Of a DNA stretch of 64,000 nt, positions 6,036 through 37,330 are shown one piece after another. How positions within the stretch are numbered: position 1 is the stretch's first letter; each line of letters opens with the position of its first letter. A program made the position numbers and the translations under genes. The DNA lies in assembly GCA_964658305.1 (NCBI GenBank), contig OZ210885.1, positions 24,428,001-24,492,000 of the forward strand. The letters run 5' to 3'. Under the pieces are notes generated by a model. It made no database searches. It saw nothing but the letters and a program-made list of their open reading frames with translations, and had not been told where the DNA came from. The stretch is from Leptogorgia sarmentosa (taxonomy: Eukaryota).

Positions 6036-6202
6036 TGTGATAAATGCAGATTTCAACTTTAGATACTGTTCCAAGTTCCCTTTATAAAAAAGGACCCATG
6101 GACATGTGCTCGGGCCTTTCTGGGGGGGGGATTGACATTGTGTTAGAGTAGACTGGGAGTGATAGACTAAGGGAGTAAATAAAACGTACCAAAAACTTTA
6201 CA
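6036..6202 (+). repeat. 5' LTR
   Basis: GACCCATGGACATGTGCTCGGGCCTTTC matches 10472-10499, and ATTGTGTTAGAG...ACTTTACA matches 15537-15602. The 5' start is uncertain. Confidence 0.75.
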
Positions 6203-6216
6203 TGGTACCAGGAGTG
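6203..6216 (+). promoter_or_regulatory. Primer-binding site, complementary to tRNA-Leu(TAA) 3' end
   Basis: TGGTACCAGGAGTG immediately after the LTR CA; complement of ...CACTCCTGGTA-CCA, the animal Leu-TAA tRNA end as I recall it. Confidence 0.75.
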
Positions 6217-6233
6217 TAACTCAAGATATAGCA

Positions 6234-9200: not shown

Positions 9201-10365
9201 CGCAAGACGATTAAACAGAAACTACACCGATCTCACGTAGGAGTACAAGGCTGCCCGAGGTGAGCCCGCGAAGTAGTCTATTGGCCAGGGATGACGAAAG
9301 AGCTAACAGAATACATCCAGCAGTGTGAAACATGCAACACCTACTCCTTAGAACAGCAACGACAACCACTTATCTCCCACAAGGTACCCGAAAGACCCTG
9401 GCAAAGAGTGGCGTGCGACATGTTCACATTACAAGGCAAGGACTACCTATGCACGGTCGACTATTATTCGGGATACTTTGAAGTAGACAAGCTGGAAAAG
9501 AAAGATGCAAAACAGGTCATAAAGAAGCTCAAGCGTCATTTTGCTGATCATGGGATCCCCATTGGATCCCCATGAACTTGTAAGCGACAACGGACCACCC
9601 TACAATTCCGTAGAGTTCGCCACCTTTGCACACGACTATGAGTTCGAGCTGAGAAAAAGTTCACCCACATTTCCCCAGAGCAACGGCCGGGCGGAGAATG
9701 CGGTCAAAACAGCAAAACAGCTTCTCAAGAAAGCTATCAGCAGTGGGAACGATTTCTACCTCTCACTTCTGGACTGGCGAAACACGCCAACCGAAGGCCT
9801 CGACAGCTCTCCAGCACAGCGGCTGCTCGGAAGACAAACACGAACGTCCCTACCCACGACGACCCAACTCTTGAAACCCAAGGCGCCAAAGAATGTGCGC
9901 GCAAACATGATTACAAAGAAAAACAAGCAAAGGAAATACTACAACCGGGGAACCAAAGACCTCCCTCCACTAAAGAAAGGCGATATCGTTCGGGTAGACC
10001 CACTACCAACAGACAAGCAAAAAAGATGGTTCAAAGCAAGAGTGGAAAGGAAAGCGGATATTCGTTCGTATGTCGTACAAACGTAAGTGGGACAACAGTA
10101 CCGACGAAACCGAAGACACCTGCGAGCAACAACAGAACAATTCGATGGTTCAGTTATGGGGGAAGACCACAGGGAGGACAATGCCACACCAGCAGAGGAC
10201 AAGGGAATCAGCATCCACAGGAACATAAAGCCAGGGAAACCAGATAGCAACGCCGGCACGATTACCGGAGCCAGCACAACCAGTGTCAGCACAGCCAGGG
10301 CCACCACGAACAAGTGGCAGAGAAACAAAACTCCCCGGACATCTGAAAGACTATATTCTAAGTAG
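6234..10365 (+). pseudogene. Gypsy gag-pol polyprotein (gag, Zn knuckles, protease, RT, RNase H, integrase), disrupted
   Basis: CAKCGKMNHFAAKC knuckle; VDSGASCN protease; RMPFGI...IADDIL RT; DASSQGIG/TDHKPL RNase H; HHCC plus ACD/SDNG/AENAV integrase. Stop at 9261, frameshift near 9560, stop at 10084. Confidence 0.95.
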
Positions 10366-10640
10366 AAAATAGTGAGACAAACTTACGTCATCTGTTCATG
10401 TTAAGTTGTGTTCGAGAAAAGGGAAGATGTAACGATAATGGTGATTGGTCATTCATGGACCAATCACAAAAGACCCATGGACATGTGCTCGGGCCTTTCA
10501 CATTAGAGAGTTTTAGATTGGCGCTCTTTTTGAAAACGGCAAACTGCGGTTTGACGTTTGCGGTTAGAAGTTTGACGTTATTATTTAAAAAGACTTTAGA
10601 TTGTATCTGGTAATAACCAGACAATCTAGAGTAAATCAAT

Positions 10641-12351
10641 ATGGCTGCTGCAAAGAGGAGGTAAGATTTGCTTATTTTGTAGCTTCAACTGCCAACAAAA
10701 TTTGTCCAGAAAAGCCGAAGTCAATTATTTTTCAAATTAACTTTTATAGAAAAAACTTTGGTGACATTGTGGAGTTTTTACTCTACGACTCAGATTCTTC
10801 TGATGACGAAGATGATTTGTTTGATGATTATGATCTAATTTTATATGAAATGGCTTTTACCCAAAAGCCAATGCTTGGACCTCGTCTCAATTTGCAAGAT
10901 GTCTCCGAAGACGATTGTGAAAAAATGTTTAGGTACACATTGTATATGTTTCGATGTTGAAGTATTATAGGCCAAATCATTCGTATGATTTATTGAAAAT
11001 AATCAATTTAGGTTTCAGAAAGAAGATATGCAACGCCTGTTTCGAGCACTAAACATGCCTGCTCATTATATTTGTGAACAAGGAACAAAGACATCCGGAA
11101 TGGAATGCTGAGGAGGTTGAGCTATCCCAACCAATTGACCGACGTTGTTCCAATCTTTGGACGATCAGAATAAGAACTAAGTCTTATCTTCAATCATGTA
11201 AATATTTTGTTATGAAAATTCAAGTACAATTATAATTAAAACGTAATGAATGATTTAAATTAAAAAAAGACCTGAAATTAATATCATCCACGCTTTAGGT
11301 AGTTGATGACCTTTATGGAAGGTACAACGAAAGGCTTAGCATGTTAGACGCGGTATGGCTAGACCCTGAAGCTTTTTCTCAAGCTATACATGCTAAAGGT
11401 TGCCCACTGACACAGTGCTGGGGTTTTATTGATGGCACTGCCAAAAGTATCTCAAGACCAATTTATAATCAGAAAATTATGTACAGTGGACACAAGAGGA
11501 TTCACTGTCTAAAATTTCAGGTATTCCTAAAACCCTTTTATGGCTGTATTAGTCCATACAACACAGCAATCTGCTTTAAATTCACATTAAGTAATGCTGA
11601 TCTAGAAAGGGACTAATACCATGTCCCACTAACCTATTCCTGTGATGAAATCAACCCAACTATATAATATTGGTACCATATTTTCCATATCAACCTATCC
11701 CCCAAGGGGGCTTATTCTTTCAGACCTTTTGAGAAGGGCTTATTCGGGGGGGGGGGGTTAATGAGAGCTTAATAAATTTAATAAATATCTCTATGTACAT
11801 AAATGGAGCAGGCTTATTGGGAAGGGGGTCAATAGAGGGAACATGGCAATTCTGTTTTTTTTCCGTTCAGTCAGTCCAGGCCCCTAATGGCATGATCACT
11901 CATTTGTTTGGACCAATTGAAGGACGGCGCCATGATGCATTTATGCTCGGAGAGAGTGGCCTCCTTCCAAAATTGCGGCGTCTTACTAAACGGAGAGCCA
12001 TATGTTATATATGGAGACCCATATGTTATATATGGAGACCCTGCTTATGGTCTGTCAAGAAATATTCTTGCTCCATTTCGAGGTGCAATCTTGACAGATG
12101 AAGAGAAGACATTCAACAGCGCTATGAGTAAAGTCAGAGTCAGTGTGGAATGGGGTTTTGGGAAAATTCTGCAGAACTTCGCCTTCATAGATTTCAAGAA
12201 AAATTTGAAAATTTTACTGCAACCTGTAGCCAAATATTACTTAGTTGCTGGCATCTTGACTAACTGCCATACATGCTTGTATGGTTCTGTAGTAAGTAGG
12301 TTTTTTGAGCTTGCCCCACCACAACTAGAGGTATACCTGTCTAATCAGTAA
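10641..12351 (+). pseudogene. Harbinger/HARBI1-like transposase, multi-exon, disrupted
   Basis: CWGFIDGT, YSGHKRIHCLKFQ, EGRRHDA, YGDPAY and VRVSVEWGFG motifs; GT-AG introns; lesions near 11105 and 11171. Confidence 0.9.
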
Positions 12352-15242: not shown

Positions 15243-15536
15243 AACAATTGGATTACGAGCTCGAGATTTCTATGAGGTGATAGTTGATGAGGGCGAAGCC
15301 CGAATCAACTATCATCTCGTAGAAATCGAGAGCGAGTAATCTAATTGTTTTAGTAGAATCAGAGATCAAACGTGAAAATATTGCAAAAAATAATTTAAAA
15401 CCGCATCTCAGAAGACATTTTCTTGAACGAAAATTCGCATGTTTTGCTACTCGCTATCTATCGAGGAATAGATAGCGAGTAGAGTAGCCAATCAAATTGC
15501 AGCATTTGCAATAGTATAAGAGTATGATTCTACTAA
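15243..15536. mobile_element. Non-autonomous Crypton-like element
   Basis: Long terminal hairpin centred on GGGCGAAGCCC plus inverted repeat TTAGTAGAATC/GATTCTACTAA; inserted in the Gypsy LTR. Confidence 0.55.
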
Positions 15537-16923
15537 ATTGTGTTAGAGTAGACTGGGAGTGATAGACTAAGGGAGTAAATAAAACATAACAAAAACTTTA
15601 CAATATTGAAGAACTTTAATAAGTTACAAAAGTCCTTGTTTCAACCTGAGAAACAAATTAATGAAACTCATTTATCTTTGAATTTTTCGAATACTAGACA
15701 TACAATTTTCACTTCAAACTATACTTAAAAACATTTCATTCACAATCCCAACAATGTATTGCTTGCCTTTAATATTTTTATACACTGCCGTGTTTTTGCC
15801 ATTTTAAAGTAAAGGTTTGATATGAGAATTAGTCTTCAACTCAAACGGAAAGGCATGTGAACCTCAAGTCCTTTTTTTCATTACCTATTCTATAGAAATT
15901 TTTTATTTTCACATTATGTTATTCAGAAAACACTGACATATCATACGATGTATAGCTTGGCCTGGGGACCGAATCATATCAATGCGTTTTTTTACTTTGA
16001 ACATTCATGTAATATGATGCGTTTCTGAGGAATGTGCATGTTAAATTTCAGGTCATTTTCTCGCTTCATTCTAGCCATAGTTTTTTCATTTTGCAATATA
16101 TTATACATATTTCAATGATAATTCCAACAATGTATTGCTTGTCCTTAATATTTTTATACACTGCCGTGTTTTTGCCATTTTAAAGTAAAGGTCTGATATG
16201 AGAATTAGTCTGCAACTCAAACGGAAATGCTTGTGAACTTCAAGTCCTTTTTTTAATTACCTATTCTATAGAAATTTTTTATTTTCACATATGTTATTCA
16301 GAAAACACTGATATATCATACAATGTATAGCTTGGCCTGGGGACCGAATCATATCAATGCGTTTTTTTACTTTGAACATTGATGTAATATGATGCATTTC
16401 TGAGGAATGTGCATGTTAGATTTCAAGTCATTTTCTCGCTTCATTCTAGCCATAGATTTTTCATTTTGCAATATATTGTACATATTTCAATGATAATTCC
16501 AACAATGTATTGCTTGTCCTTAATATTTTTATACACTGCCGTGTTTTTGCCATTTTAAAGCAAAGGTGTGATATGAGAATTAGTCTTCAACTCAAACGGA
16601 AATGCTTGTGAACTTCAAGTCCTTTTTTTAATTACCTATTCTATAGAAATTTTTTATTTTCACATATGTTATTCACAAAACACTGATATATCATACAATG
16701 TATAGCTTGGCCTGGGGACCGAATGATATCAATGCGTCTTTTTACTTTGAACATTGATGTAATATGGAGGGTCTCCCAGGGGTTTTGGGGGAACAAGGGA
16801 ACAGGGTAATTTTAACAATGGGAACACGGGAACAAAGAAAAAAAATCATGAGGAACAAGGGAACACAATATATTGGAGAACAGGGGAACAGAGCCCCTTC
16901 ACAGCTTCACTCACTGGTCTTTA

Positions 16924-17564
16924 AGCCCGGCGCACACTAGAGGAAACAGCTAAGCTGAGCGTCACTCGTGAACGTTGGCGTAAGCTGTTTCCTCTAGTGC
17001 TATCGGCGACAAATATTCAACATGTTGAATACTTTTGGCGGGAATGACATTTTCCTCCAAGTGTGCGCGCGTCCTGAGGAAATAGATCAGCAGTCGAAGG
17101 GACTGCGCATGCGTTCAAAACTCAATTATCAAGATGGCGGATGATGAATCAAGCTCCTCTGAAGATGAAGAAATTTTATTGCTCCTTTTATTACTGAGAC
17201 GAAGACGCTTGAGAGCGGCTAATAGAAAGACGTGGGTTAAGCAGTGGATTTTACGCAGCCAAGTTTATCTTCCAGAATGGCTTCAGCAACTAATACCGAA
17301 CTGCTTGCCGCCATCTTGAGGTTAGAAAACAATAAAATACGCATGCGCAGTCCCTTCGACTGCTGAGCTATTTCCTCAGGACGCGCGCACACTTGGAGGA
17401 AAATGTCATTCCTGCCAAAAGTATTCAACATGTTGAATATTTGTCGCCGATAGCGCGCGTGGCAGAAATCACAGAAAACGGCTGCGCACACTAGAGGAAA
17501 CAGCTTACGCCAACGTTCACGAGTGACACTCAGCTTAGCTGTTTCCTCTAGTGTGCGCCGGGCT
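16924..17564. mobile_element. Harbinger-derived MITE with long TIRs
   Basis: TTA|AGCCCGGCGCACACTAG...CTAGTGTGCGCCGGGCT|TTA. The interior retains a Harbinger transposase-like N-terminus (MADDESSSSEDEEILLLLLLLRRRR..WVKQWILR). Confidence 0.85.
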
Positions 17565-17841
17565 TTACTACACAGAACACAAAATATTATGACCCAACAT
17601 ATTGTAGATAAAATATACGCATATTACATCATTGTCATCATTTCTAGTGACTTTAGAAAGTTTTTTGCCTGTTTGTCTTTAATAACTTCAAATCTTTAAT
17701 GACTTTAATACCATCGACGTCCCTGAGTTCTGAGGGAAAACCCAACATATGCAGCTTAGATAAAGTACAAAGCTTGCTGTTCCGGTTAATTGAGCCTGTG
17801 AGCAAATGACGCAAATTAAAGAAATTTTTACAGTAAAAAAG

Positions 17842-20800
17842 ATGGAGGCAGATACTGATCAAGATGCTGTTCATGCTGACCGTATATTGCTGCCGGTGAC
17901 TGCAGCAATCTATCAAAATGGCATGGAGAAACCTGCAATGAGATGGTCTTTCGAAATCGAAGTTGGCGCCCTAAGCGATAAAGAGTTGCACGTATTTATT
18001 GAACGATTAAAAAGAGGTTTTGGAATCGCCAATCGATGCACAGAACTAAAAATACAGAAGTTTAAAGTTTCATTGAGCATTAAGGACTTTACATCGTTGC
18101 CAGAATTTCCAAAGGGGAGACTATTTGAAGTGGATTGTCAAGAGCAATGGCAGCCTGCGCTGAAAAAAATTGTCAACCGAGAGCGAGAATTGATTGGTAA
18201 GTTGAGGCTGTTGCGTTGAATTGTCAGTCGAGTCAGTCGAGCGCATATGGGAGTTTTTCTGGCCAATCCTTTGCTAATCCTTAAAAGTAGAAAAGGCACT
18301 TCCTTATTTGAAAATATTGGAGTATTCCTCAATGATAGTCCTTATATTCATGTTATTTCATGGTCATTCATGCTAAATGTGTTTATAATGTGATGTGATG
18401 TATTGCTGTATGGTGGAGTTCATTGGAATTTGGCAAAATGCAGCTGGGAAAACAGCCAATGACTGTCAGTGTTTCTAGCAGATACCCCCTTTCTTATCTG
18501 AGAAAAAGTACATAAATTAAATAATCAGTGATTTTTTAAATGGTTCATAATTATTCCCAATGTAAGTGTACATGTAGTCTTTGGGAGCACATTGGCATAT
18601 ATTATTCTACTTGTCTATATAATATTTTTTCATTTCTGGTTTAGTAAAAGTATATGAAATTGAGTTGGTACGTGCATATTCAATTACAAACACTGCCAAT
18701 GCTGTCAATACAGCAGAGTCTACAAAAACAGTGACAACAGTGACAACAATCAAAACAGCTTCCTTAAAACCAGGCAAGTCAACTAAATCACCAGCTTTTC
18801 GTGGCAACAATACAGTGGACACTCACCGACAATTAGATGAAAAATTGTTCAGATCTCTCAGTGGGAAGCATGAGACTCAGGTTAATAGGACGGAACGGCA
18901 AGAAGAAAAATGGAAACTATTCAAAGCTGGTAGGAATGTGAATTAATTGCATGAACTGTATGTGACATTTATTACTGCTATTAATGGTCAAAAAGTTACC
19001 ATAGTCTTTGAATTGAATTGATTTATTGACACTGAGTCAAGAGCCACATCTCACCAAATTATTTGATATTTATGACTTTATGTTGTCATTAGAGCTGTGA
19101 ATTTTTAATAATTGTTATAGTGACAGTAAACATGTTATTGAGTTAATAAACAATTATTGGATGAGGCTGAGCATGATATCAAGAATTATTCAGACCGAGG
19201 TCGATGTTATCTGCCGAAGCGAAGCTGAGGCGGATAACATTGACCTCGGTCTGAATAATTCTTGATATCATGCAAAAGCCGAATCTAATAATTGTTTTAT
19301 TATACATTTAAAAGAGAGTTCACTTTCATTCAGCGAAGCAAATCTGCCGCAGGCCATTGTTTGTTTGTTTGTTTTTTCGCGCGCTTTTAGCTTCAAGCTT
19401 TTGACAGCGCTGGGGCTTGGGCACGAGAGAGTCCAATAATTTTTTTTTTGGATGCAAGTTCGATCCAAAAAAATAATTATTGGACGCTGATGACGTCATC
19501 GGCGGAAAATACGTAATAAATACCGAGAATTAGCCGGTGCTTTCTGACCAATCAGGAACGAGAATAAATTTTAAATGTATAATAATTGACCTTATTCCCC
19601 TAGTGACTAGTTAATTAACTGTTTATTGCATGATGTAGACCAATTCTCTGTCTAATAGCAGACGATTTACTCTTCAAGGGGAAAACCTTACTGGTATGTT
19701 CGTTTCATGTAGTAAAGGGTCAGGTCAGCTGAGATGTTCTATAAAATTCTATTAAATTCTAGAAATGGAAAGGAGATATCCAGGCACTCATGTTCAAAAT
19801 GAAAGGTGGATTGTATGTAGTTGTGGGGTTACAGTAATGCTGAACAAGCCAAGAGCTCTGAGGTTCTTTGCCCACAGTAAGTACTGTACTTTGTGCTGAT
19901 GTTAACTATAGGTTCAACTATATTTACTTGGGCTACTGTGGTAGAGGTATTTTTTTAACTGCATGTGTTCGTATAGGTTATAGTATGGTTTCGACTTCGA
20001 GTGCAATTTGGGAAAAACATGCATGAAATTTTTTTTAAAAAGATAGTAAATCTTTAAGCAAATTTCCATCTTTCATAATCACTTCTAAAAGTTTGGACAT
20101 GATTAGCTCAAATGAATTTCTTTAATTTGCGTTTTCTGCCAATCAGATTTGTTTGTTACATATTTTTGCACTGTTGTTACAGATTTTTGCACTCCTGTTT
20201 GGGATTAACTGCACTGAAATTGACCAATCACAGTTGAGATTTTCTTGTACATATATTATTTCATCTGTTATTGACTAAAATACCAGTTGTTTTTCTATGG
20301 AATTGTCACCTCAGAATGGATTCCATATTGCAACAGTAGATCTACTGTAATAGGTTCAAAATATCTTACGTCAGTAACGTGATTTGATATATTTATATAT
20401 TTTTTGCAGGACACTGGGACAAATGCAAGCAAAAAAGTGATGTGAAAAAAAGAAAGCAAATGACAATAGCAGAATCACTGACATGCGCCAAAGAAACTAT
20501 CTCTGCTCCATCTGTTGACATTGACAATGACATGCCTGATGACGATCTTCAAAGCTATACTGCTGATATTGATGTGTAAGGGCAGACCCACGTTGTTAAC
20601 GTCATTGGACCCGGACGGACAAGTCACTGCATATTGCTACAGTGTACTTTACAAGTCACTACATGCAACAATTAAAAATAGTTACATTTTCCTTATAAAT
20701 AACGACCGAGGTGACTGTTACGTTTTCCAAGTTATTACCTTTAAATGCAAAATACTTTTGATTTAATTATTTGTGAACATTTGTTGCAGTTGGCTTGTCT

Positions 20801-23800
20801 GTTGGCACATATCAATTCACATGTATATTCTAGCTAGAAATTTCAGTCAAACAAATGTTCATTAAAGGCTGTAAAGATCACTGTTGAATTCTAAAACTTT
20901 CTCTGTGTTGAGACATTTTGACCTATATTTATTACAGTTCCCCTGGAATAGACATAGACAGTTCTTCAGACTATCATTATGAAATGTTACTGAACGAGCA
21001 ACCACTTGACGAAATAATGGCTACGCAGTCAGAGTTTTCTATTGAAAAAACTGATTCGGTCAACTCCGACGACTCATATTCATCGTCTTTTACTTGTTCG
21101 GATTGCGATGAATCTGATGATGTTGATTTTGGACGTCCTTTAGACCCTTTTGCATCCGGAACTGCGGCTGGGATAAAACGTGTGAAAATTCTCGATCCAG
21201 TTACTGACAAGCTACAGAGCTTTTTAGACAGTGGAGTCTTATCCACTGATAGCATGTTCTATGGGCTGCTAGCAAATTCGGTGAGTTACGTGCATTGGCT
21301 CAATGAGTTCAGTTCGTCGAGAGCCTAGAATATCACGGTGGAAGAAAAGTGGTAAACCTTCTTAGAGGCGAAGGGCATGTTGGAGAGGGTGGAGGTGGCA
21401 TGTTCAACTTTGATTGGAAGAAGTGGAATTGGCCGCTGCTGGGAAAAACAACTCGGGACAAGCAATATGAAGGATATACTACAGAGAATGGGATTCATGC
21501 TTCACTGCTGGAATCGTTTATTCTTTCTTGTATAACAGAAAAGACACTTCCATTATACTAGGACGAAAATATAAAAGTTGTTCCTGCTGTTTTGGCAAAA
21601 GATGGAATGCAGTTGAAACCAGGCTTGCTGTTTGATACAAGACAAGGAAAGCTTGTTGGAAGTACTCTTGATATCGACTACAAATTTGTTAAGGACAACC
21701 CTTCACCAAACAAGGAAATGCTTAAGAATAGCATGGTTCAAGAAGCAGAGGTGTCATCTTTAACTACAATAGACTCAAAAATATCCATGGAAGTTGGAGT
21801 TCGCCACCTTGTGAAGGGTTTGGATTCAACTGAATCTGCTGATACTATCAAGAAAGAGTTGAGAGAAGTCAATGTCTGTCAACTTCATTTGCAGCACAAT
21901 CTGATCGAGACAAAAAATGGAGTAATAAACGATCACAAGAAGTGTAACAGTCACTGCATTGACTGTATAGAAAACAAGGACGTTTGCGTTGATTGTGAAA
22001 GAAAAGGTCACAAAAACATTGAACCCGAGCTTCGTGCATGTGATTACTGTATGAAGAATAAGGAGAAGTGCAATAAAGTGGCAGTCATTTGTGTGTCCCA
22101 GGACTCTGAATCTTGAAATTCAGGTAGTCAGAAAATATTGATGGAAGAAAAGAATGAAAATACGAATCCTAGTTTGAACGTTGTTTTCAACCATTGCTGA
22201 TGCTGTTCATGTTGCCAAGCGCAAGCGGCAAGGCTTCAGCAATTGGTTCTTGTGGGTTGATGATGTCAGGATAAACCTGGTACAGCTGCGAGAGCTCAGG
22301 AATGATCCAAGTCTGTATTCGGAGCTGTCGAAATTGATTCCTCTCAGTGCTGTAAGGAACAGAGATAGACAAGATGTTGAGTCAGTTCTCCAAATCTCGG
22401 CTCCAGCTGTAACTGATGTTCTGAAAACCAATGCAGCGAAAGTTACGCATACAGTTGTTCCAGAAAGGTACAGAATCACAGACGACAACAAGGAGGGCGT
22501 ACTTAAGAATCCTGTTGGTATTGCCATCGGTCCTCTTGGCAACATGTTCATAAGTGACATTGGATCACAGAAAGTTTTGAAAGTTAGAGTTTCGCACTAT
22601 CCAGCAAACGTAACAGTGGAAGTGGACTCTCTAGACTGCCCTGTTGGTATTGCTGTGCAGAAAGGTGTGCTTTACATTGCAGAGTCTAGAAAGAGTTACA
22701 TTGTGTTTAAAGACCTTACTGGTCAAACTGTACTTGATCCTAACAAGCTAACAGTAGCACAGTTGCGGAAATTCCTAAAGGAAGCTGGTGCTTGGGATGA
22801 TAGCGACAACAGGAAAAAGAAGAAACCATTGAAAGACAAGTTGCAACAAGTCTTGAAAGAGAGATTGTCCAAAAGAGGCTGTGTTTGTTCTAACAAGCTT
22901 CAAATGGAGAACAGTATTCAAAATCCTCTTGCTTTGATCTTTGACAAAGATGGTCATTTGTTTGCGTCCACAAAACAAGGAACCGTGTTCAAAATCAAAG
23001 TGGAATCAGATCTTGTGAGCTTGAAAGGAGTGGTCATTGCTCAAATTGCAATAGGCTGTGGCCTTTCTCTATGGATTGGCTATTCTCAATGATGTACTGT
23101 ATGTTGCATCCCACGACGATGACGAGTGTTTTCAATTAACTTTCAAGAGAAGACATTCGACAAGGTCTTGAGAAATGGAGAAGATTGCTCAAAGGTACAT
23201 AGCCTAACAGTTTACAATAACAAACTTCTCTTCAGCGATGTTGGGGATCATTCATTGAAAGTGTGGAATCCTGTGACCTGTGAATGCACACCCCATTCAG
23301 CAAATGGCAAGGGGACGAGGGATGGCAAGAGTGCTCAATTTGTCCAGCCAACCGGTGTATGTGCTGAACGGAAAACAGTCTTTGTGCTAGACAGTTCTAC
23401 GGGCTGTTTGAGAATGACGAGTGAAGTACCTCCGCTAGTGAAATTTCTGAGCAGCCTTCAAGAGTTCTGTGTCACGTTTGGCTTGCATCTGAAAAAGCAG
23501 AAATCAACATCTTTCACAATTGACACAGCAATCACCAGAATCCAAGAAGTATATGACTTTGATTGTCAATGCATAGAACAAGTCAAAGTTTTCCTTGAGA
23601 CAACGGCGCAGACCCAAGGTCCACAAGGAACCATTTCATCAGTCGTTTTAGAAGACGAAAGAAAAATCTTGTTGGCTTTGAAAGAAATTCGAGGTCTGTT
23701 TCAAAAGTATGCTCCACAGCTTTTAAGGGTGTTCAAACTGAAATGCCTCTTGACGCTGGTAGTTGAGAATTTTTTCGCCGAGATGAGGGCAGGAGCATAT

Positions 23801-24616
23801 GATATGCCAATGCAGTTGCAGTTCGACTACCGCTTCAGTCGAGCTATGAAGGAACACTTGAAGCAGATGTGCACAACCAAGTTTTCCTACTACACAAATG
23901 CAAAGTCTCACTATCCAAGAGTGAAATCTGACTTGAAGTATTCAGCTTTGCCAAAGACGTCCCCACCAGCAGCAGCACAGTTAACAAAGCCACAAATGCA
24001 GCAAATGAGAGATTGGCGCATAAAGTATGGTCAAAGTGTTCCACAAAAGACCGTGCGAAACATGAGCACAAAAGACAATCCCGGAACTTTGCCAATAAAT
24101 CTCTATGCCCATGCACAGCCAACTAGCGAGCCTTTGGATTTCTCGAAAATCGCAGATAATGGTGCCCAAACAGATTCGCGTCATGACACGCATGACCTTC
24201 TTCATTCCTCAGGAGACGTTGTTTTTCTTGCTTCGGACGCTATTGCTGGTCGGATGATGATCTACCTTCCACAAGAAAACGTAAGTGCCTTGACAAAGAA
24301 AGCAAGTGCCACCCATTTTGAAGGTGAGCCTTTCAATCCACTGATGTTTACAGAAGGAGGAGCTGTCAAGGTGAATGCCAGAGACATATCGGGTTCTTTG
24401 GAGAAAACTGTTTCAGCTGATGGTAACCTTGAACTGACAGAGAATGAGTTTCTGAGGTATCAGTCGAGAATGATTGATTGTGTAGATGCGGTGACTATTG
24501 AAGAGGCGAGAGAGATTAGTGAGTCCTTGGATGCGGATCAAGAAAGTCTAGTCGATGTAAGGCCAAGGCGTGCAAGAAAGAGGCCACATGCTGACGATTT
24601 TGTTTATTTTGATTGA
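17842..24616 (+). pseudogene. P-superfamily-like DDE transposase with inserted Cys cluster, NHL repeats and SAP-like motif (multi-exon, several lesions)
   Basis: DGMQLKPGLLFD..LVG (D1, 21601), VSQDSES (D2, 22102), DAVHVAK (DxxH, 22199), DRQDV, VENFFAEMR (E, 23765). NHL repeats at about 22501-23420. Probable upstream exons 17842-18195, about 18650-18929, 19762-19877, 20411-20574. Stops at 21559 and 22114, frameshifts near 22180, 23070 and 23125. Confidence 0.75.
19146..19584. mobile_element. Non-autonomous Crypton-like element in an intron
   Basis: Long hairpin centred on CCGAAGCGAAGCTGAGG and inverted repeat TTATTATACATTT/AAATGTATAATAA; same architecture as 15243-15536. Confidence 0.55.
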
Positions 24617-26199
24617 CATTTTACTGTAGTCTGTACATGTAGTTGTGGCTGTAATACTCTGCATGAGGTAGACGGAAGGCCTTAAAAGTTTCTCAATCAG
24701 CTAAAGTGATTGACAATATTTATTTACAATAATGTAATTACTATTCACATTAGTTTGATGAATTTGATATTTCGGTGCCTCTCGGATCTCATATTTTGTG
24801 TACAGTATAAGCAAAACCGGTTAAAAGTTCTGTAACAGTCATACAACAAAGCGATTTCGTTTTAATGCGTATATAATTATTTATGCGGGTTCCGTTTTTT
24901 TTTGGGACACCCTGTATAAATCATCTATTAAGGGAGCAAGGGAACATGCTATAATTTTGGAAGGGAACAAGGGAACAGAGCGAAAATTTGGAAGGGAACA
25001 AGTACCCCCCCTGGGAGACCCTCAATATGATGCGTTTCTGAGGAATGTGCATTAAAGTCATTTTGTTATTACCTTCTAAATACACAATTTTTATTTTACG
25101 ATATATTATAATTCTCTACTTGATATTTCAAATAATGTGTAGCATGCCTATATTCCTCAGAAACGCATCATATTACATCAATGTTCAAAGTAAAAAAACG
25201 CATTGATATGATTCGGTCCCCAGGCCAAGCTATACATCGTATGATATATCAGTGTTTTCTGAATAACATATGTGAAAATAAAAAATTTCTATAGAATAGG
25301 TAATGAAAAAAAGGACTTGAAGTTCACAAGCATTTCCGTTTGAGTTGCAGACTAATTCTCATATCAGACCTTTACTTTAAAATGGCAAAAACACGGCAGT
25401 GTATAAAAATATTAAAGGCAAGCAATACATTGTCGGAATTATCGTTGAAATATGTATAATATATTGGAAAATGAAAAATCTATGCCTAGAATGAAGCGAG
25501 AAAATGACTTGAAATTTAACATGCACATTCCTCAGAAATGCATCATATTACATCAATGTTCAAAGTAAAAAAACGCACTGATACGATTCGGTCCCCAGGC
25601 CAAGCTATACATTGTATGATATATCAGTGTTTTCTGAATAACATATGTGAAAATAAAAAATTTCTATAGAAGAGGTAATGAAAAAAAAGGACTTGACTAA
25701 TTCTCATATCAAACCTTTACTTTAAAATGGCAAAAACACGGCCGTGTATAAAAATATTAAAGGCAAGTAATACATTGTTGGGATTGTCAATGAAATGTTT
25801 TTAAGTATAGTTTGAAGTGAAAATTGTATGTCTAGTATTCGAAAAATTCAAAGATAAATGAGTTTCATTAATTTGTTTCTCAGGTTGAAACAAGGACTTT
25901 TGTAACTTATTAAAGTTCTTCAGTATAAAGAATTAGTTTCTGTTTGAATGTAATTATAATATATGGAGATCTATTATTAGATGTTATATGTAGTGTGCCA
26001 CAGGCCAGCCATCCCCTCATTTTGACAATTCTAATTATTAAGGTTCTTTACATGATATAGCTTTTGCTCATCTGTGTGCACATTCTCTTATATATATGTA
26101 TATAAATGGTGATTAAAAGTATAAATTTGGACACTTACTAAATTTCAGTATTAGACAATTACTAAATGTCGGGCCTGTAGCATATAAGGTGTAAACTAC

Positions 26200-28962: not shown

Positions 28963-31900
28963 CAGGGGCGGATCCAGGGGTAGTCAAAGCGATCACGCGA
29001 CTAACGTAAGAAATGCAGTTTATGAAATTTTTTCTCATCTATTATTCTAGTGCGAAAATGCGGTCCAGTTTAAAATTTCGTCCAGTTGCACATTAATCTT
29101 TTATCTTGTGTCAGTACAAGTGAACAGCAGCCTAGCACGTGAGTTTTGATCGCTCACATGTCAAATTCGTGCAATCTGATTGGCCATTTCGTAGTTCTCC
29201 ATGGCGACCCAGGTTTTGATCGATCTAGAGGTTGGTCTGATCGATCTAGGGCCATGTTGGGGGTGTGTTAGAGCACATACAAGCCACTCAATTGGCTAAT
29301 TCAAATAAGTGTCTTCATTCCCATTGGTTATAATTTCTTGATCAATCATGACCGATCAGACGTTCAGAGAGCTGGTCTCGTATTAGAGCCTTTTCGATAC
29401 TGTGAGCCTTGAACGCAAAGGAGAGAATACAGCGAGTATTTCACAATGTCTTGTGATATTTTCGAGGGTGTACGCTCGGCGTTTCAGCAAAACGACAAAG
29501 TCTACCCTCAAAATGTGTATGATCATTTCAAACGCGAGGTTGAAGCGAGAAGAGGTCCATCAGTCGAAGAGTTGTTGAGCGCAATTATATAAACAACATA
29601 AACATAACATGTGCCTCAGGCGAAACTTTAGTGCTGAATCGTTCATCCCCAAATCTGCTCGAGAAGGGAAAGACAAGTTCTGTACTGCAATAAGGTCAAG
29701 ATATTAGTATTATTTGTTTATTATAATGCTGGTTTCTGTCTTTCCCATGTTAATAAATACTAAATAGCATTTATACATTTCAGGGGTTATTCTGATTATA
29801 CAACTCCAGTAAATTAAAAAATTCTGCCACTTTGTTAAAGTATTAAGGCTTGAGTAGGAGACCTACTGTATCGACCTGCATTATCCCTGAGAATAAGTAG
29901 CAAGGCTATATTTTTTGAATTTGGTGTGGTTATCATCTTACTGTTGCTTATTCACTAGTTACACTATGACTCTGTCACAGCAACTGTTAGCCTGTTAGTC
30001 ACTTTTTGGTGTGGTGGCGTCAGACCCCACTCATACGGTAACCTGTTGATGACTGATGAGGTAGGTAATATGGGTCAGTGGTGGGGGAAATCAATTGTGT
30101 CTTGAAAGAAGGACATTTGTAATTATTATATAAGCTCTAGCTAGTGTACAATAATTCCATATTTCCATACAAACTGTTGACATACTTTATAAACTATAGA
30201 CATCCTAGGAAATAAATATGACCTTCGAATGAGTTGGCTAAAATCTCAGGTCAAATACTTTTCCATTTACCAACATTGCTGACAAATGATATATTATTTA
30301 TTATAAAAATAAATAAAATATTTCCCCCTGCTGACAGAGCAGTTAATAAAAGGGACAAAATCTCTCAACGTATCAAATTGATAAGAGATAACGACGAATA
30401 AAATCATTTCAGACTTCTCAATTTAGTCAATAGACTCAATACCTTTGGCTTTCATGCACTCTCCAGAAAGTTGATCAAGCAATGTCAATATTGAACGAAA
30501 CTGATCTTTCAAGAACAACTTCTCAAAACATCTCTGCCACTATTGATGTCAAGAGTGGATTCTTCTACTATGATATACTTCTTGTGAAAATTTGAAGGAA
30601 GAGCTTGATATAATCAACAGCAACATTTCCACATTATATCAAGTACAAATCTTCTGTGGTACAAATAACAACCCGCAAAATTTTGCCTGGAAAAAATCGC
30701 GAAAATAAGTACGCGTATAATTAAGTGCGAAAAATTTATCATGCTTGAATCAAATTCTTGCTTTATTCCAACATCAAAAATTTTAAATATTATATTAAAA
30801 TTGATGAGTGATGAATGAAAATGATCGTTCAAGACGAACTTCTCAAACGTCTTTGCTACAATGGATTTCAAGAACTGAATCTTCTAATACTTCTGATGAA
30901 AATTCAGGGGAAGTGGCTCAAGTGGATGATGTTCAAAGATTTGCAACTGATCAGCTGAATAATGAAACTGAAACCACCGAAACTGAAACAATTTTGCCGG
31001 TTGACATAATTAATGATTGTGAAGTTGATAAAACGAATTCAAAACAATTTGATGGGAAAACCTTCAAGCATTGGACACATAAAAAGCAACATTTTGCAAG
31101 GTGTGAGATATATTTTCGAAATTTAAACACTGTCAGGTTATTTGTACAAAACAAATTACCAGCATTAGTCCAGGAAACTGGTGCAGTTTACCGATCCAGG
31201 ACAATAGGAACTCATATAAAGACACAATACCACAAAGAAGCTGTAAAATCTGAACATTTGAGAAATATGGCTCCAGAACAAGCGTATCAGTGTACACCGA
31301 TTGGATATCATATTTCAGCAGCTAACAAGGAGTTAGCAAACAAAATGGGGAAACTAATGCTTCATGTGTATAATGACGCAAAGAAACTTACACTTTCTGC
31401 ATACAGTTGGCCAAGCAGAATTGTGACATCAGAAATTGCCAGTTGTTTTTCTTTCAATCAGAAAGAAAATACATCTGGTTTTAAAATGGGCTTCCAATAT
31501 ATCAGTCCTGCACATCAAAGACAACTTCTGAAGAAACTGTAAGCTCTCATAAAGAACAACTCGCTAGTGGTGTAACTAATGCTCTTGCATCTTCTCTTCG
31601 ATGTGATGGAAGTGTTGACAGAACGCAAGTTGACAAAATTTTTGTGATGCTGAAACTTATAAGCAATGCAGCAGAGGAAGAACTGGTCTTTGTTGGGGCA
31701 AGAGAACCAAAACTGGGCTGAGGGACTTGTTAATGCTATTAAGGAAGCATGCAAGGGATGTGGCAAAGATTCACCTGAGGAATCTAGTAATGATTCAGAA
31801 GAAGAAGGTTCTGACAACCGCGACCTCCCCGATGAATCATTAGAGTTTGTGCTATATGAAACTTCCTCGATTGTAACAGATGGGACAAACGTAAATAGCG

Positions 31901-32176
31901 GAGCAAGATCTGGATTATGGACATTGCTGGAAAAATTGAGGAGCGAGAAGTGTCCTAGTGATGAGCAGGTGCCCTTGTTGAAAATTTGGTGTGCTGTTCA
32001 TCGCAGTCAATTAGCATGGAAAAATGTAACAGAAAATGTTGACGAACTGAAAATTCTCATTCAGGAGCTGGAATCTTTATCAACTTATTTTCATACATCA
32101 GGAGTGAGAACCAGAGAAAGGCAGGCGATTGGGAATGAATATAAACTAACTGTCAGACGATACCCAGAGTATTTTC
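28963..32176 (+). mobile_element. hAT transposon, left end plus truncated transposase
   Basis: Terminus CAGGGGCGGATCCAG at 28963 cuts the Penelope copy; a hAT transposase follows; no right end seen. Confidence 0.6.
30808..32176 (+). pseudogene. ZNF862-like hAT transposase fragment
   Basis: SLRCDGSVDRTQVDK (D1, about 31595-31640), SSIVTDGTNVNSG (D2), KIWCAVHRSQLA (CxxH); frameshifted; cut at 32177. Confidence 0.8.
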
Positions 32177-32749
32177 TACGGTGGCCCACAAGGGTCACTA
32201 AAACTTTCTTTTAAATTGACTTAACTTTGGTGTTTGCCGACCAAACTTTATTAAACAAATATATCTTTTGTAGCGATCAAACTTTCTTTTGTTCATAGCG
32301 ATCAAACTTTCTTTCGTAAACTAGATGTTATCCTATAACAATACCCCTCAACAAGGGCATGACCATTTCTATTTAATAATACATAAAATTTGAGCAAAGT
32401 AAAGAGATTTTACGCGAGAGAATCCCTCAATACGAGCTATTACATGAATGTACAAGGAGAATTAGTACATTAATTTAGTTATATTATTTATTATTTTAAA
32501 TTACTTATTATTTTCTTTTGATCTTTAGTAATGCATGTGTTACAATATTTGTCTACAATATTTAATTTGCCCGCCCGACATTTGTGACTTGTATTGTATT
32601 TTGTTGGATATGTATCCACTTCCCACTGACACTTCCTCGTACACTTCGATTATTTATAAAGACATAAAACTGCAAGAGTAATTCTTAAAAGCAGTAAAAT
32701 ACTTACACTTCCTCTCCTTCCTCCATTGTGAATTCGACGAATCACGCCA

Positions 32750-34560
32750 TCATGGCTCGATGGCGGGGAAAGTGTTGACGTTCCCGATTGAGTCCCGAAT
32801 ATGTTGCGGTTCGTTACGAGTATTAGCTAGGCTATTTCCCATTGCAAACATCCAGGGTAGTAACTCACGTACGGACTGCACATACATGTCGAAGTTGGCT
32901 TCTCTAAACGCTCTTACTAGGCGAAAGCAGCACAATTCCAAATCGAGCACTGAAGCCCAATACTGGAACTGTGGGCACTTTTCCGCCATAGCCTTCTTCC
33001 AATCTTCTTCAGGCATCAGACTCTCGTCCTCTTTCATTCTGTCTTTGTAGTTGTTGTATGCTGTGCGCATCGGTACAAACAAACTGGCAGCCGTCACCTG
33101 GTGTGCACGCGTTAGATGACTAGCTGTTAGAAATGACTCTGCAACGCCTTGTGTCGCCACCCCAGCATTACATATTGCTTCTACCCAACCGCTGCCACTT
33201 ACCCACTTGCCCAGCATTTTGAAAGCTGTCATTTCAATATGCAGTCCCCCAAGCATAACCACGAAGCGGTCTTCATTGTATTCGAACAATGACCACTGTA
33301 TCTGCTTGGCCAGGGCAAACAATGGCTGGTCAAGTGCGATGACTGGAACTTGTGAAGGATTGACATGCTGTGTGGCCTGCTTGACGACTTTCATGCTGTG
33401 CGCAATCATGGCCAGAGAATGTGCATTCTCTACAAACATTGGCAAAAGAGAGATGATTGCTGGGTTTCGCTCGCTGAGAGAGGATTTTTCCGCTCTGAAT
33501 GCCGCCCATGATGCAAAGTCCTTCGGTCCAAGCTTCTCCTTTGATATCAATTTCTCGATGTTGCAAAGCCAGTCTTCTTCCTCTCGGATACCACTGTTAT
33601 CATTTCTAGTAGAGACAGGAATCGACATGCCACGAGGGAGCTCTGGTGCTTTGAGATCACATACTGGTAATAATATAGGAGCTAACTCGCTATAACTTGA
33701 TGGTAATTGGGCTATTTTCTTAGTGACAGTCGGCTTAGTGGCATCAAATGTATCTGGATCTCTTGCTGTTCCTTGTTGCCCAGTTGAAGAATGTTGCACA
33801 AGAGAAATTGCTGTGCCGTGAAAAGAGCCATGTGAAGAGGTCGAGCTTGGATTATGATCAATATTGTCGGCTGCTGAAGTTGTAAAGAGTCCCAGTCTAA
33901 GTTTAGAAGGACAAACAACACCTTCGCGATCATATCTTTCTAAGACAGTGTTTGTGGTTTCAGTAGAAACAGACATAAGCCTATCATAGGATATCGAGAT
34001 GCCAAGATTGTAGAACGTATCGATCAGCGATCTGTCTCTAGTGGCACCATGTATTTTAAGAGCTGTGTAGATCGGAAGTGGGCACTCTCTCGCTCTAATA
34101 TGATGAGTGCTGCCGGTGGCGTCAGGTCGAGCTCGAGCTCTCTGGATAGAGTTGAAGACTATTAACTGGGCGATTGACAAACAAGCTTGGCTTTCATATG
34201 GGTCGACATTCGTTGTTGGTCCTTTAACTATCATACCAAGTAGGGTTAGAAGGGAAGCTGGGACGGAATGTGGCTGGCACTCAGGAGGAAATGAACCATT
34301 GAAAGTGTTCTTAATGTTTAATATCTCTCTTCTCACTATGTGTGCGGCTCGTGCTAAAGACATCGCATCCTGATCCATCTTTTTAGCTCTTGTTAACATT
34401 ACTCCAGTTTCATCTTTCAATGCAAGATGGACTTCTCTTCCTTCACTATGAGCGGTAAGAGATGGAAAGGCTTCTAGTATCCTCTCCTTTAGTCGTGTTG
34501 CATTTACCTTTCCGCATTCAGCCTTCAAGAAATGTTCAAGTTTAGAAGTATAAATCTTAT
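32750..34560 (-). pseudogene. Academ (AcademX-like) transposase fragment
   Basis: ADNIDHNPSSTSSHGSFHGTAISLVQ, PVIALDQPLFALAKQIQW and MLGGLHIEM...GSGW motifs; truncated at both ends. Confidence 0.7.
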
Positions 34561-35315
34561 TTTTGACACAAGTTCACAGATTCGTTCCCTTCTCTCTCCC
34601 GCTTGCGAAGCCGAAGGCTCCATTATGCATTATGTATAAATTAAACAAAGAGTCAGAAGACACAAGTCGGAAGTCAGAAGTGGGCCTCCTCGGCCATCGT
34701 AATACTCTGATTAGTGCAACACTCGTTCATTGCTTGTGTTGTGCTACCATTTTCAGTACTCTTTTAACAGTGACACCTGGACAGGTTTTAATGTTGAAAT
34801 AGTAGTGTCAACATTAATTTTTTTATATTTTAAAATAACTTTTTAAAATTGTGATGACCTTCCAGGTAAACTTTTCAAAAAAATGGAAAGCCTGAAATGT
34901 GCTTACAGGAAAGCAACACAATTTGGACAGGGAAACTTGTTTGTTTAGAGCTGGTCTAGATCACCAATATAAACCAATATAATGTTGGTACACAAAGATC
35001 CATAAAAAGATGAATTCTGAAGTACACTGGAAAGAGTTTTTCTAAATTCAAGTATCACTGACAAAATCAAACCATTAAGCTTCAATGGGCACTCATGCAC
35101 CATAAAATATCTACAAAATTATTGGAAAGATTGATTTTTGAACTGGAAACTGAGAGGCTGTCTCCAAACTTGTCTAGCTTTCTCACTTAGGGCAATGCAA
35201 GATGAATATGGACAACAGCTTTGAATTTTGAAGATTGATGATGAATTGGTTTCTTAAAGATAAACCTACGGTGGCCCATACCGGCAATACAGATATATTT
35301 ATTTCAATACAAATA

Positions 35316-36483: not shown

Positions 36484-36601
36484 TTCCTGTCCCATGAGCC
36501 CACGAACATGCACGATTTTCGAAACAACATGGCCGATGGTGGGAACTTCGAATGTGCAAACTGCAGCCAAACACTTTTAATTACATACAAGTATTGTATG
36601 T

Positions 36602-37330
36602 CTTAAGCCTTACGGATTTCCAATCCATGGGTGCATTGATGGCTGGAGTAGGAAGGTGTTGTGGTTAACACTAGCTCGTTTGAATAATGACCCCAACATA
36701 CCAGCAACGATCTACCTTGAAACAGTGGCAGAGCTAGGAGGATGCCCAAGAAAGGTGAGAAGTGATTGCGGTACTGAGAATTGCCTTATGGCAGCTATGC
36801 AGTGTGAATTATGTGGGCAAGAAGATTCTCGCGTTTATGGGACATCTCCTTCAAATCAACGAATTGAGTCTTGGTGGTCCTCATACAGGAGAAACAGATC
36901 AACCTGGTGGATCAATTACTTTAAAGACCTAATTACAAGAGAGTTGTTCAATCCAAGCAATGTGTTGGAAAAGGAGTGTTTGTGGTTTTGTTTTTCCAAA
37001 CTGTTACAAGAAGATTTAAACAAAGTAAAAAGCCATTGGAATACCCACTATATCAGGCACTCCAGGCATGATACTATCTCAGGAAGACCAGATGAGTTAT
37101 ACAGTATTCCAGAATATCATGGTGGTGAAGATGATTTGCTTGTTCCTGTGACAAATGATAAAATCAATGAAACTAGGGGGCATTTAACAAGCACCAACGA
37201 GGAACCTGCAAATATGTATCAAGATTATTTTCAACATATTGTAGACATCAGCAACCTCCAAATACCATCAATGTGGACAGAGGCTGAGGCATTGTACTGT
37301 AATCTGGTTGAGGTTGCTAGGTCAGAATAA
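36602..37330 (+). pseudogene. IS3EU-type (integrase-like) DDE transposase, 5'-deleted
   Basis: LKPYGFPIHGCIDGWSRKVLWL...PRKVRSDCGTEN...NQRIESWW...WNTHYIR; the region expected to hold the first catalytic Asp is missing. Confidence 0.85.

What the first reader, a model, noticed from the sequence alone, without database searches (positions are those of the whole stretch)
21592..24616. P-element-like transposase with an NHL beta-propeller, SAP-like motif and Cys cluster built into its catalytic core
Seen: in order, DGMQLKPGLLFD..LVG, a cluster of about 9 Cys plus His (CQLH..CNSHCIDC..CVDC..H..CDYC..C), VSQDSES, DAVHVAK, DRQDV, about six NHL-type repeats (NPVGIAIGPLGNMFISD; CPVGIAVQKGVLYIAE; NPLALIFDKDGHLF; LTVYNNKLLFSDVGDH; GTRDGKSAQFVQPTGVC) interrupted by a SAP/HeH-like helix pair (KLTVAQLRKFLKEAG..KKKKPLKDKL), then VENFFAEMR. 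Known: P/THAP9 transposases show DEMxIK, D, DxxH and ENFFSxxR in this order, with a helical GTP-binding insertion between DxxH and E. Inference: a distinct P-related lineage in which a propeller (protein- or RNA-binding in other NHL proteins) sits in that insertion and could mediate targeting or regulation. I know no described transposon with this architecture; automated pipelines would probably label it an NHL-repeat host gene.
Basis: partly seen in the sequence, partly recalled or inferred. Interest (0 to 1): 0.9.

Follow-up and report, generated by a model that had tools for sequence, protein, structure and literature searches.

The report
Propeller-carrying P-like DNA transposon family
This is a decayed copy of a widespread marine-animal jumping gene whose cutting enzyme is predicted to fold like the fruit-fly P element transposase but carries a whole six-bladed propeller, a likely DNA-binding SAP motif and a likely zinc cluster inside its catalytic core, an architecture I could not find described.

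Summary
Confirmed and extended. The motifs lie in the last exon of a five-exon gene (17842-24616) broken by two stops and four indels. The gene sits in an 8.26-kb element (16767-25023) with perfect 16-bp terminal inverted repeats. A 6-bp target duplication is shown by four empty copies of the host repeat. Intact relatives are common: 255 clusters at E≤1e-30, with named hosts among corals, an octocoral, amphioxus and Priapulus. D, D, the H of DxxH and E are essentially invariant in 36 full-length relatives. A model of a propeller-less deletion form matches Drosophila P transposase best (Z 16.1, next 8.3). The insert folds as a six-bladed NHL propeller (Z 26) with a SAP motif in a loop. It is kept in 49 of 51 relatives spanning the core, and its tree follows the core tree, so it is no one-off chimera. 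The element is not a standard P element: 6-bp duplication, no THAP domain, GTP site apparently not kept. The propeller's role is inferred only; most likely it helps capture target DNA, like RAG2. No paper found; Repbase could not be searched. This scan noted the same family before on other DNA (e1-7583089).

The parts
16761..16766 (+). left target-site duplication AATATG (6 bp)
   Evidence: repeated at 25024-25029; four empty host-repeat units carry one copy only
16767..16782 (+). left terminal inverted repeat GAGGGTCTCCCAGGGG
   Evidence: perfect 16-bp pair, 2 matches against 0.12 expected; similar left ends in L003, L004, L011
16789..16890 (+). six subterminal GGGAAC repeats, candidate binding sites for the N-terminal finger (inferred)
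   Evidence: GGGAAC occurs 10 times on the + strand of the element, all near the two ends
16924..17564 (.). nested palindromic MITE with TTA duplication (Harbinger-like; label recalled), a later insertion
   Evidence: contigs skip exactly 644 bases here; ends read
17842..18196 (+). exon 1: ATG and an N-terminal domain of unknown family
   Evidence: 61% identity to L002 and 44% to Paramuricea P0008; no Pfam hit
18645..18929 (+). exon 2
   Evidence: AG/GT borders, in phase; short matches in L002 and L005
19763..19876 (+). exon 3: first half of a CxC..H..C (BED-like, not THAP) finger
   Evidence: 57-71% identity in L002, L005, L006, L008; motif in P0008, P0037, P0151, P0045; zf-BED E 0.024 in P0151
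20410..20575 (+). exon 4: end of the finger (H-W-x-x-C) and acidic linker
   Evidence: matches in L002, L005, L006; exons 1-5 to 21306 read 429 codons without a stop
20938..24616 (+). exon 5: pre-RNase H helical region, RNase H core, Cys cluster, propeller, C-terminal region; broken in this copy (46-nt deletion near 21306, stops at 21559 and 22114, indels near 22183, 23066, 23120)
21601..21603 (+). first catalytic Asp (strand 1)
   Evidence: D in 35 of 36 full-length relatives, the other truncated
21877..22071 (+). Cys cluster between helix 1 and strand 4 of the RNase H fold, likely zinc-binding
   Evidence: nine Cys positions conserved in 35-36 of 36; placement from the model's secondary structure
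22102..22104 (+). second catalytic Asp (end of strand 4)
   Evidence: 36 of 36
22199..22210 (+). DxxH motif
   Evidence: H 36 of 36, D/E 36 of 36
22490..23410 (+). six-bladed NHL-type beta-propeller inserted in the helical insertion domain (approximate borders)
   Evidence: AlphaFold model of relative P0007; Z 26.5 to SOQ1 and 26.3 to NHLRC2; profile E 3e-23 and 2e-17
22745..22870 (+). SAP-like helix pair in a propeller loop, basic
   Evidence: Pfam SAP above its cut-off in four relatives, best E 1e-11; median net charge +5
23765..23767 (+). catalytic Glu (ENFF helix)
   Evidence: 36 of 36
24190..24480 (+). C-terminal beta-barrel, weakly BAH/chromo-like (approximate borders, low confidence)
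   Evidence: Z 5-6 to several BAH, chromo and PWWP domains in the model of P0025, below the tool's trust line
24940..25000 (+). four subterminal GGGAAC repeats, same orientation as at the left end
25008..25023 (-). right terminal inverted repeat
   Evidence: contigs of three other runs follow the end and leave at 25023-25028; L001 has a similar end
25024..25029 (+). right target-site duplication AATATG

Best explanation
This is a decayed copy of a DNA transposon with 16-bp terminal inverted repeats and a 6-bp target duplication, whose single five-exon transposase is predicted to have a P-element-like DDE core and likely uses its built-in NHL propeller and SAP motif to grip and position target or flanking DNA. 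Shown: the ends, the duplication, the exon structure, the invariant D/D/DxxH/E, and the family-wide conservation of Cys cluster, propeller and (mostly) SAP. Predicted: the P-like fold and the six-bladed propeller. Inferred: the BED-like N-terminal finger binds the GGGAAC subterminal repeats; the core cuts and rejoins DNA with Mg2+ as a cut-and-paste enzyme with a 6-bp stagger; the Cys cluster binds zinc. The propeller is inserted into the helical domain that in P transposase binds GTP and contacts transposon and target DNA. It would act as a rigid in-cis accessory that presents the basic SAP motif to DNA, much as the RAG2 propeller assists RAG1, and probably without a P-type GTP site. My odds: transposon 0.97, P-related core 0.9, this particular propeller role about 0.4.
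For: Ends and 6-bp duplication. A second lineage with other ends (CAGGCCCGGCCAGGGG) has both ends in L015-L017, and the left flank of L017 equals the right flank of L016 over exactly 6 bases. Core fold: 6P5A Z 16.1, rmsd 3.8, 287 aligned, chain range 149-569 covering all three catalytic residues; next best Z 8.3; Foldseek E 5e-6, the only entries below 1e-3. Spacing DxxH to E without the propeller is 194-217 aa against 192 in P transposase (D339 to E531; PMC8230255 passages). Propeller kept in 49 of 51 spanning relatives. Core and propeller trees agree (Spearman 0.75; 11 of 13 supported propeller splits shared). pTM 0.77 over 1018 residues suggests a fixed propeller-core arrangement. The P insertion domain contacts transposon and target DNA (PMC7776569 section 8). 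RAG2 is a six-bladed propeller that assists RAG1 in binding and cleavage (PMC7204232 passages).
Against: No sequence-level match to P transposase in the PDB with three profiles, and the Pfam P-core hits are below the cut-off. The core model came from a deletion form with a poorly modelled junction (pLDDT 55-60 at residues 331-370). I could not read model coordinates, so convergence of the three acids is inferred from secondary structure and from the alignment range. The propeller body is neutral to acidic (median charge +0.5 and -4), which does not favour direct DNA binding, and SAP was not detected in 12 of 51 spanning relatives. Nothing here tests the propeller's function. Only the best 150 of 1503 profile hits were seen, so propeller-less closer relatives may exist further down.
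Confidence: 0.6

Rival explanations
1. Same transposon, but the propeller is a protein-interaction module that tethers the transpososome to a host chromatin or replication factor (possibly with the C-terminal BAH-like barrel), steering insertion rather than touching DNA.
For: The propeller body is not basic; its nearest sequence relatives are SOQ1 and NHLRC2; the C-terminal barrel weakly resembles BAH/chromo readers.
Against: The conserved propeller residues cluster at its entry next to the core (P505, N514, H550, P552), and the family spans distant hosts with only about 24% mean propeller identity, which fits a self-contained role. The barrel match is below the trust line.
Confidence: 0.22
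2. An ordinary but diverged member of the P superfamily, possibly already catalogued in Repbase, in which the propeller is a structural or oligomerisation add-on and GTP use is retained.
For: P transposase is by far the best fold match; one lineage ends in CA..TG like P elements (the P end rule is recalled); other superfamilies contain TSD-length variants such as hAT5/6/7 (PMC12730594 passages). Repbase was not searchable.
Against: 6-bp duplication against 7-9 bp for P, 1360, Galileo and BuT5 (PMC3698922 passages); no THAP hit; no PF21788 GTP-domain hit in 24 members at E<=0.1; the position three residues before the catalytic E (D528 in P) is L, T, V, I, M or C among the six commonest letters, covering 34 of 36 rows.
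Confidence: 0.13
3. The propeller binds RNA (its own transcript or a guide), as TRIM-NHL propellers do, and regulates or guides transposition.
For: TRIM2, TRIM71, Brat and Mei-P26 NHL domains score Z 23-26, nearly tied with SOQ1.
Against: By sequence the propeller is far closer to SOQ1/NHLRC2 (E 1e-23 to 1e-17) than to TRIM-NHL (E 1e-4 to 1e-2); net charge is not basic; flanks of related ends share only a loose A/T-rich pattern, not one fixed target.
Confidence: 0.04
4. A one-off chimera or a domesticated host gene rather than a mobile family.
For: The window copy seems single in its genome (one contig path over 18014-24668).
Against: TIRs, a target duplication inside a high-copy repeat, internally deleted derivatives with both ends (L015-L017), many intact and broken relatives, clusters of up to 379 members.
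Confidence: 0.01

Closest known systems
Drosophila P element transposase (PDB 6P5A/6PE2) and THAP9/Pdre2, 1360, Galileo (P superfamily)
   Same: Predicted fold from the helical pre-catalytic region through the split RNase H domain (Z 16.1); order D, D, DxxH, helical insertion, E; insertion length without the propeller; short TIRs with subterminal motifs; introns.
   Different: 6-bp instead of 7-9 bp duplication; BED-like finger instead of THAP; about 90 extra residues with a Cys cluster between the first two Asp (167 against 73); about 325-aa propeller plus SAP in the insertion; GTP-binding signature not detected; C-terminal beta-barrel where P has an all-helical CTD.
RAG1-RAG2 / ProtoRAG (RAGL transposons)
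   Same: A DDE enzyme working with a six-bladed beta-propeller; zinc sites associated with the catalytic region. This is a functional analogy only.
   Different: RAG2 is a separate kelch-type gene; RAGL makes 5-bp duplications with CAC ends; core fold match is only Z 6-7.6. Here the propeller is NHL-type and inside the transposase chain.
Dada and KolobokD/E/H transposons
   Same: C/DxxH-class DDE transposases that captured extra domains; some Dada carry an exonuclease inside the catalytic core and some make 6-bp duplications.
   Different: Dada target small-RNA genes; Kolobok make TTAA duplications with RR..YY ends and often have a second gene. The captured domains are nucleases or helicases, not a propeller.
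SOQ1 and NHLRC2 NHL domains
   Same: Closest solved propellers by profile and structure (Z 26.5, 26.3; 258 residues aligned).
   Different: Those are thioredoxin-linked cellular proteins; here the propeller is interrupted by a SAP motif and embedded in a transposase.
hAT6 and IS3EU (6-bp duplications)
   Same: Duplication length.
   Different: The core matches Hermes (hAT) at only Z 7.1 against 16.1 for P; no IS3-type integrase-like spacing.

Membership tests
DDE cut-and-paste (TIR) transposon | terminal inverted repeats and target-site duplication | tested here: met
   16-bp perfect TIR, 6-bp TSD, empty sites
DDE cut-and-paste (TIR) transposon | RNase H fold with conserved D, D, E | tested here: met
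   invariant residues on strand 1, end of strand 4 and the last helix; fold match; spatial convergence not read directly
P superfamily | C/DxxH after the second D and a helical insertion before E | tested here: met
   spacing compared with PMC8230255 passages
P superfamily | closest structural relative is P transposase | tested here: met
   Z 16.1 against 8.3 for the next; no Kolobok or Dada structure appeared among the listed hits, so those were not compared
P superfamily | 7-8 (up to 9) bp target duplication | tested here: not met
   6 bp in the window and in one cross-contig pair L016/L017; rule from PMC3698922 passages
P superfamily | N-terminal THAP (C2CH) domain | tested here: not met
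   no THAP hit in window exons 1-3 scanned singly, nor in P0008, P0033, P0037, P0151; a CxC..H..C BED-like motif instead
P superfamily | GTP-binding residues (D528, K385, K400, V401, S409, F443, D444, N447) | tested here: inconclusive
   no PF21788 hit in 24 members; the E-3 position is mostly L or T; other positions could not be mapped without the P sequence or coordinates
P superfamily | 17-nt staggered end cleavage, GTP dependence | not testable with these tools
   needs biochemistry
P superfamily | phylogenetic nesting among P/THAP9 transposases | not tested
   no P-superfamily sequences were obtained from a tool; the tree holds family members only
Kolobok | TTAA 4-bp duplication, RR..YY ends | tested here: not met
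   duplication is AATATG; ends GA..TC fit RR..YY in the window lineage but CA..TG does not; rule from PMC9587614 passages
hAT (hAT6) | Hermes-like core with 6-bp duplication | tested here: inconclusive
   duplication length and a BED-like finger fit, but Hermes scores Z 7.1 against 16.1 for P
Dada | insertion into small-RNA genes | tested here: not met
   the window copy sits in a 375-bp repeat unit and related ends have diverse flanks; no Rfam scan was run
NHL repeat propeller | six four-stranded blades with NHL repeat signature | tested here: met
   Pfam NHL in 24 of 39 members at E<=1, best 1e-9

The most novel reading that the evidence does not exclude
An undescribed, ancient superfamily-level sister group of P elements, still intact and probably mobile in corals and other marine invertebrates, that replaced the GTP cofactor and THAP domain with a built-in NHL propeller plus SAP clamp: a single-chain, independently evolved counterpart of the RAG1-RAG2 transposase-plus-propeller design, and the likely autonomous partner of a class of 6-bp-TSD coral MITEs.
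Probability: 0.3. Interest if true: 0.85.

Novelty: new variant of a known kind. Interest (0 to 1): 0.68.

Why it matters
P transposase is the only transposase known to need GTP, bound in its insertion domain (PMC7776569). A large sister lineage with a propeller grafted into that very domain, a different target stagger and no clear GTP site makes the origin and role of the cofactor directly testable. It also offers a natural parallel to the RAG2 propeller. Intact open reading frames exist (L008, P0001-P0004 and their clusters), so it can be assayed. The loop that tolerates a 325-residue domain points to a site for adding targeting modules to P-type transposases. The family is invisible to routine annotation (labelled hypothetical or NHL protein), so coral repeat libraries probably miss or misname it.

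Tried and rejected
No whole genome is held for the window, so copy number and further TSDs could not be counted. Single-sequence and profile searches of PDB sequences gave no transposase. The first metagenome scan found nothing. Viral and prokaryotic collections gave no relatives or ends. No RNA holder was listed, which is no evidence on expression. The ESM Atlas gave nothing for the N-terminal domain. The long inverted repeats at 15603-16780 and 25140-25926 first looked like Galileo-type foldback ends; they were rejected because they are a high-copy 375-bp host repeat into which the element inserted. The full-length fold search was swamped by propellers, so the core was modelled from deletion form P0025. 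Read depth over the gene (about 65, against about 120 in the left flank of run X1) hints at one haplotype only, but the tool warns that depth is no copy number and the run may be the window's own sample, so I do not rely on it. One contig follows the right end to 25041 with many differences; whether a second copy sits in the same repeat was not resolved. No complex prediction and no Rfam scan were run. A second-look structural alignment did not start and was not repeated.
Full report
Observation. The region is a broken reading frame in three open stretches. Against the frame-intact relative L002 it has a 46-nt deletion near 21306 and small indels near 22183, 23066 and 23120, plus in-frame stops at 21559 and 22114. 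On the window pieces Pfam finds only NHL (E 6e-4) and weak SAP/HeH. Intact 1226-1260 aa proteins align across all pieces at 45-55% identity, so the architecture is real and predates the decay of this copy.

The gene is larger than reported. Paramuricea protein P0008 and loci L002, L005, L006 and L008 match upstream blocks. These define exons 17842-18196, 18645-18929, 19763-19876, 20410-20575 and 20938-24616. All four introns have GT and AG borders, and the spliced frame runs 429 codons without a stop to the first lesion. Splicing is inferred from DNA; no RNA run was available. The N-terminus carries a CxC..H..C motif, also seen in four relatives, with a weak zf-BED hit in one (E 0.024). No THAP hit was found in the exons or in the relatives with long N-termini.

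The element. A perfect 16-bp inverted repeat, GAGGGTCTCCCAGGGG, lies at 16767-16782 and 25008-25023 (2 matches, 0.12 expected). It is flanked on both sides by AATATG. The element sits in a 375-bp tandem repeat, and four other units of that repeat in the window carry AATATG once, which fixes the duplication at 6 bp. Contigs from three other runs follow the right end and leave it at 25023-25028. Among 26 related loci, L001, L003, L004 and L011 have similar ends. L008, L015-L018 and L022 have a second type of end, CAGGCCCGGCCAGGGG or close, with both ends in L015-L017. In L016 and L017 the two flanks of one contig do not match each other, probably because the assemblies join different copies. The left flank of L017 equals the right flank of L016 over exactly 6 bases, a single supporting case. 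GGGAAC occurs ten times on the plus strand of the element, six at the left end and four at the right. A 641-bp MITE with a TTA duplication is a later insertion at 16924-17564. No second open frame of 150 codons or more lies within the ends.

The family. A profile of the N-terminal core alone (9 sequences, no propeller) found 255 clusters at E<=1e-30, 878 at 1e-10 and 1503 at 1e-3; only the best 150 were shown. Source names, where given, are Porites lobata, P. harrisoni, Montipora foliosa, Paramuricea clavata, Branchiostoma belcheri and Priapulus caudatus; most hits are unnamed. The window is probably cnidarian (inference from closeness). Of 190 search hits, 51 span both the DxxH region and the E region. 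Of these 49 keep a 365-500 aa spacer and 48 score for both halves of the propeller. The two short ones are an internal deletion that also lost part of the helical insertion (P0025) and a chimeric gene model (P0125). About 36 of the 51 helped build those region profiles, so the spacer length is the less circular number. In 36 full-length proteins the first D is present in 35 (one truncated); the second D, the H of DxxH and the E are in all 36; nine Cys positions are in 35-36. Trees of core and propeller for 35 proteins (P0152 left out as truncated) agree: Spearman 0.75, 11 of 13 supported propeller splits shared, 2 conflicting pairs. This fits one old capture followed by vertical descent; the trees are unrooted and do not date it.

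Structure. The model of P0007 (pLDDT 82, pTM 0.77) shows a split RNase H fold, the Cys cluster between helix 1 and strand 4, and about 24 strands at 522-842 with a helix pair at 603-639. That block matches six-bladed NHL propellers, best SOQ1 (Z 26.5, rmsd 2.8, 258 aligned) and NHLRC2 (Z 26.3), nearly tied with TRIM2 and TRIM71. By sequence SOQ1 and NHLRC2 are clearly nearer. The model of propeller-less P0025 (pLDDT 79) finds Drosophila P transposase first by Foldseek (E 5e-6, the only entries under 1e-3) and by VIA-align (Z 16.1, rmsd 3.8, 287 aligned, chain 149-569). Next come ISCth4 and Tn5 at 8.3, RAG1 at 7.6 and Hermes at 7.1. Pfam TNP-like_RNaseH_N hits 9 of 39 members, all under the cut-off, and the ESM Atlas neighbours of the core are mostly P-like clusters at 0.83-0.91. 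Against this, no PDB sequence search reached P transposase. With the propeller removed, DxxH to E is 194-217 residues against 192 in P (numbers from PMC8230255), so the propeller is an insertion within an otherwise P-sized insertion domain. A C-terminal barrel gives only weak BAH/chromo-like matches (Z 5-6).

Mechanism. Cut-and-paste transposition by the DDE core follows from the family's known chemistry; it is not shown for this element. In P transposase the insertion domain binds GTP and contacts transposon and target DNA (PMC7776569). Here the Pfam GTP-domain model is not hit in 24 members, the D528-equivalent position is mostly L or T, and the stagger is 6 bp. I therefore think it most likely that the propeller is a fixed accessory presenting the basic SAP motif (median charge +5) to target or flanking DNA, in analogy to RAG2 (PMC7204232). 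That SAP motifs bind DNA is recalled knowledge. The neutral-to-acidic propeller body and the missing SAP signal in 12 of 51 relatives count against this and keep a host-protein tether as the main rival.

Comparison and novelty. It works like a P element but fails two tested defining features (7-9 bp duplication, THAP), so I file it as a P-related lineage, not a member. Searches for transposase with NHL terms gave no paper, and none of the 15 papers listed holds 'NHL repeats'. One search returned only the Dada paper. What I saw of papers: term passages of PMC8230255, PMC3706591, PMC3698922, PMC12730594, PMC9587614, PMC7204232, bioRxiv 10.64898/2026.09.03.748810 and 10.1101/2021.09.26.461848 (the last two have no occurrence of NHL or propeller in the main text), and passages plus section 8 of PMC7776569. 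No supplements were read, and alignments or element lists there could hold members of this family. Repbase, Repbase Reports and subscription journals were not searchable, which is the main gap in the novelty claim. Domain capture inside a DDE core has precedent (an exonuclease in some Dada elements, PMC3706591). This scan noted the same family on another genome (e1-7583089) and a possible distant relative (e1-7449653); my reading was fixed before that look-up and these notes are not independent evidence.

Verdict. Real, widespread and architecturally unusual: a new variant of the DDE/P-like kind, interest 0.68, with a 0.3 chance that it is an undescribed superfamily-level group with a RAG2-like built-in propeller.

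Noticed in passing
window 15603-16780 and 25024-25926: High-copy 375-bp tandem repeat present in both orientations, forming long inverted arms around the element. The unit right of the element flips orientation near 25140, so an inversion or a foldback-type host element may be involved.
   Followed up: partly
window 16924-17564: Palindromic MITE with TTA duplication; it holds a short acidic/basic ORF remnant that resembles the start of Harbinger transposases (recalled, not tested).
   Followed up: partly
window 6137-10500: LTR-type retroelement: 1026-codon ORF at 6183-9260 with protease, reverse transcriptase and RNase H hits. A 66-bp TG..CA segment at 6137-6202 recurs at 15537-15602, and 6089-6120 recurs at 10468-10499.
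   Followed up: partly
window 11896-12348, 62103-62726, 50131-51444 (-), 36581-37327: Other mobile-element remnants: two DDE_Tnp_4 hits, a weak Transposase_21 hit and an rva_4 integrase-core hit.
   Followed up: partly
window 32753-34573 (-), 46700-47758 (-), 2177-3064 (-), 59922-60815 (-), 30808-32211: Long open frames (183-607 codons) with no Pfam hit in the five scanned; probably further uncharacterised mobile-element proteins.
   Followed up: no
window 38021-40739: Array of a 271-bp unit (about 10 copies, 99% alike) that contains a tRNA-like sequence.
   Followed up: no
L008:1660-5415 and 6058-6073: Intact 1252-codon open frame of the second lineage with its right end 640 bases downstream; a good naturally intact candidate for assays.
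   Followed up: partly
L015:2-3450, L016:973-3868, L017:923-4209, L011:1892-5412: Internally deleted derivatives that lost the N-terminal exons and first part of the core but keep the ends, as expected of non-autonomous copies.
   Followed up: partly
proteins P0092, P0149, P0179, P0073: Very divergent members from unnamed sources (P0092 adds a PHD finger); their composition suggests non-animal hosts, which would make the family older than animals, but the hosts are unknown.
   Followed up: no
window 15243-15349, 19171-19273, 19428-19488: Short, very high-copy hairpin repeats, two of them inside intron 2 of the transposase gene.
   Followed up: no
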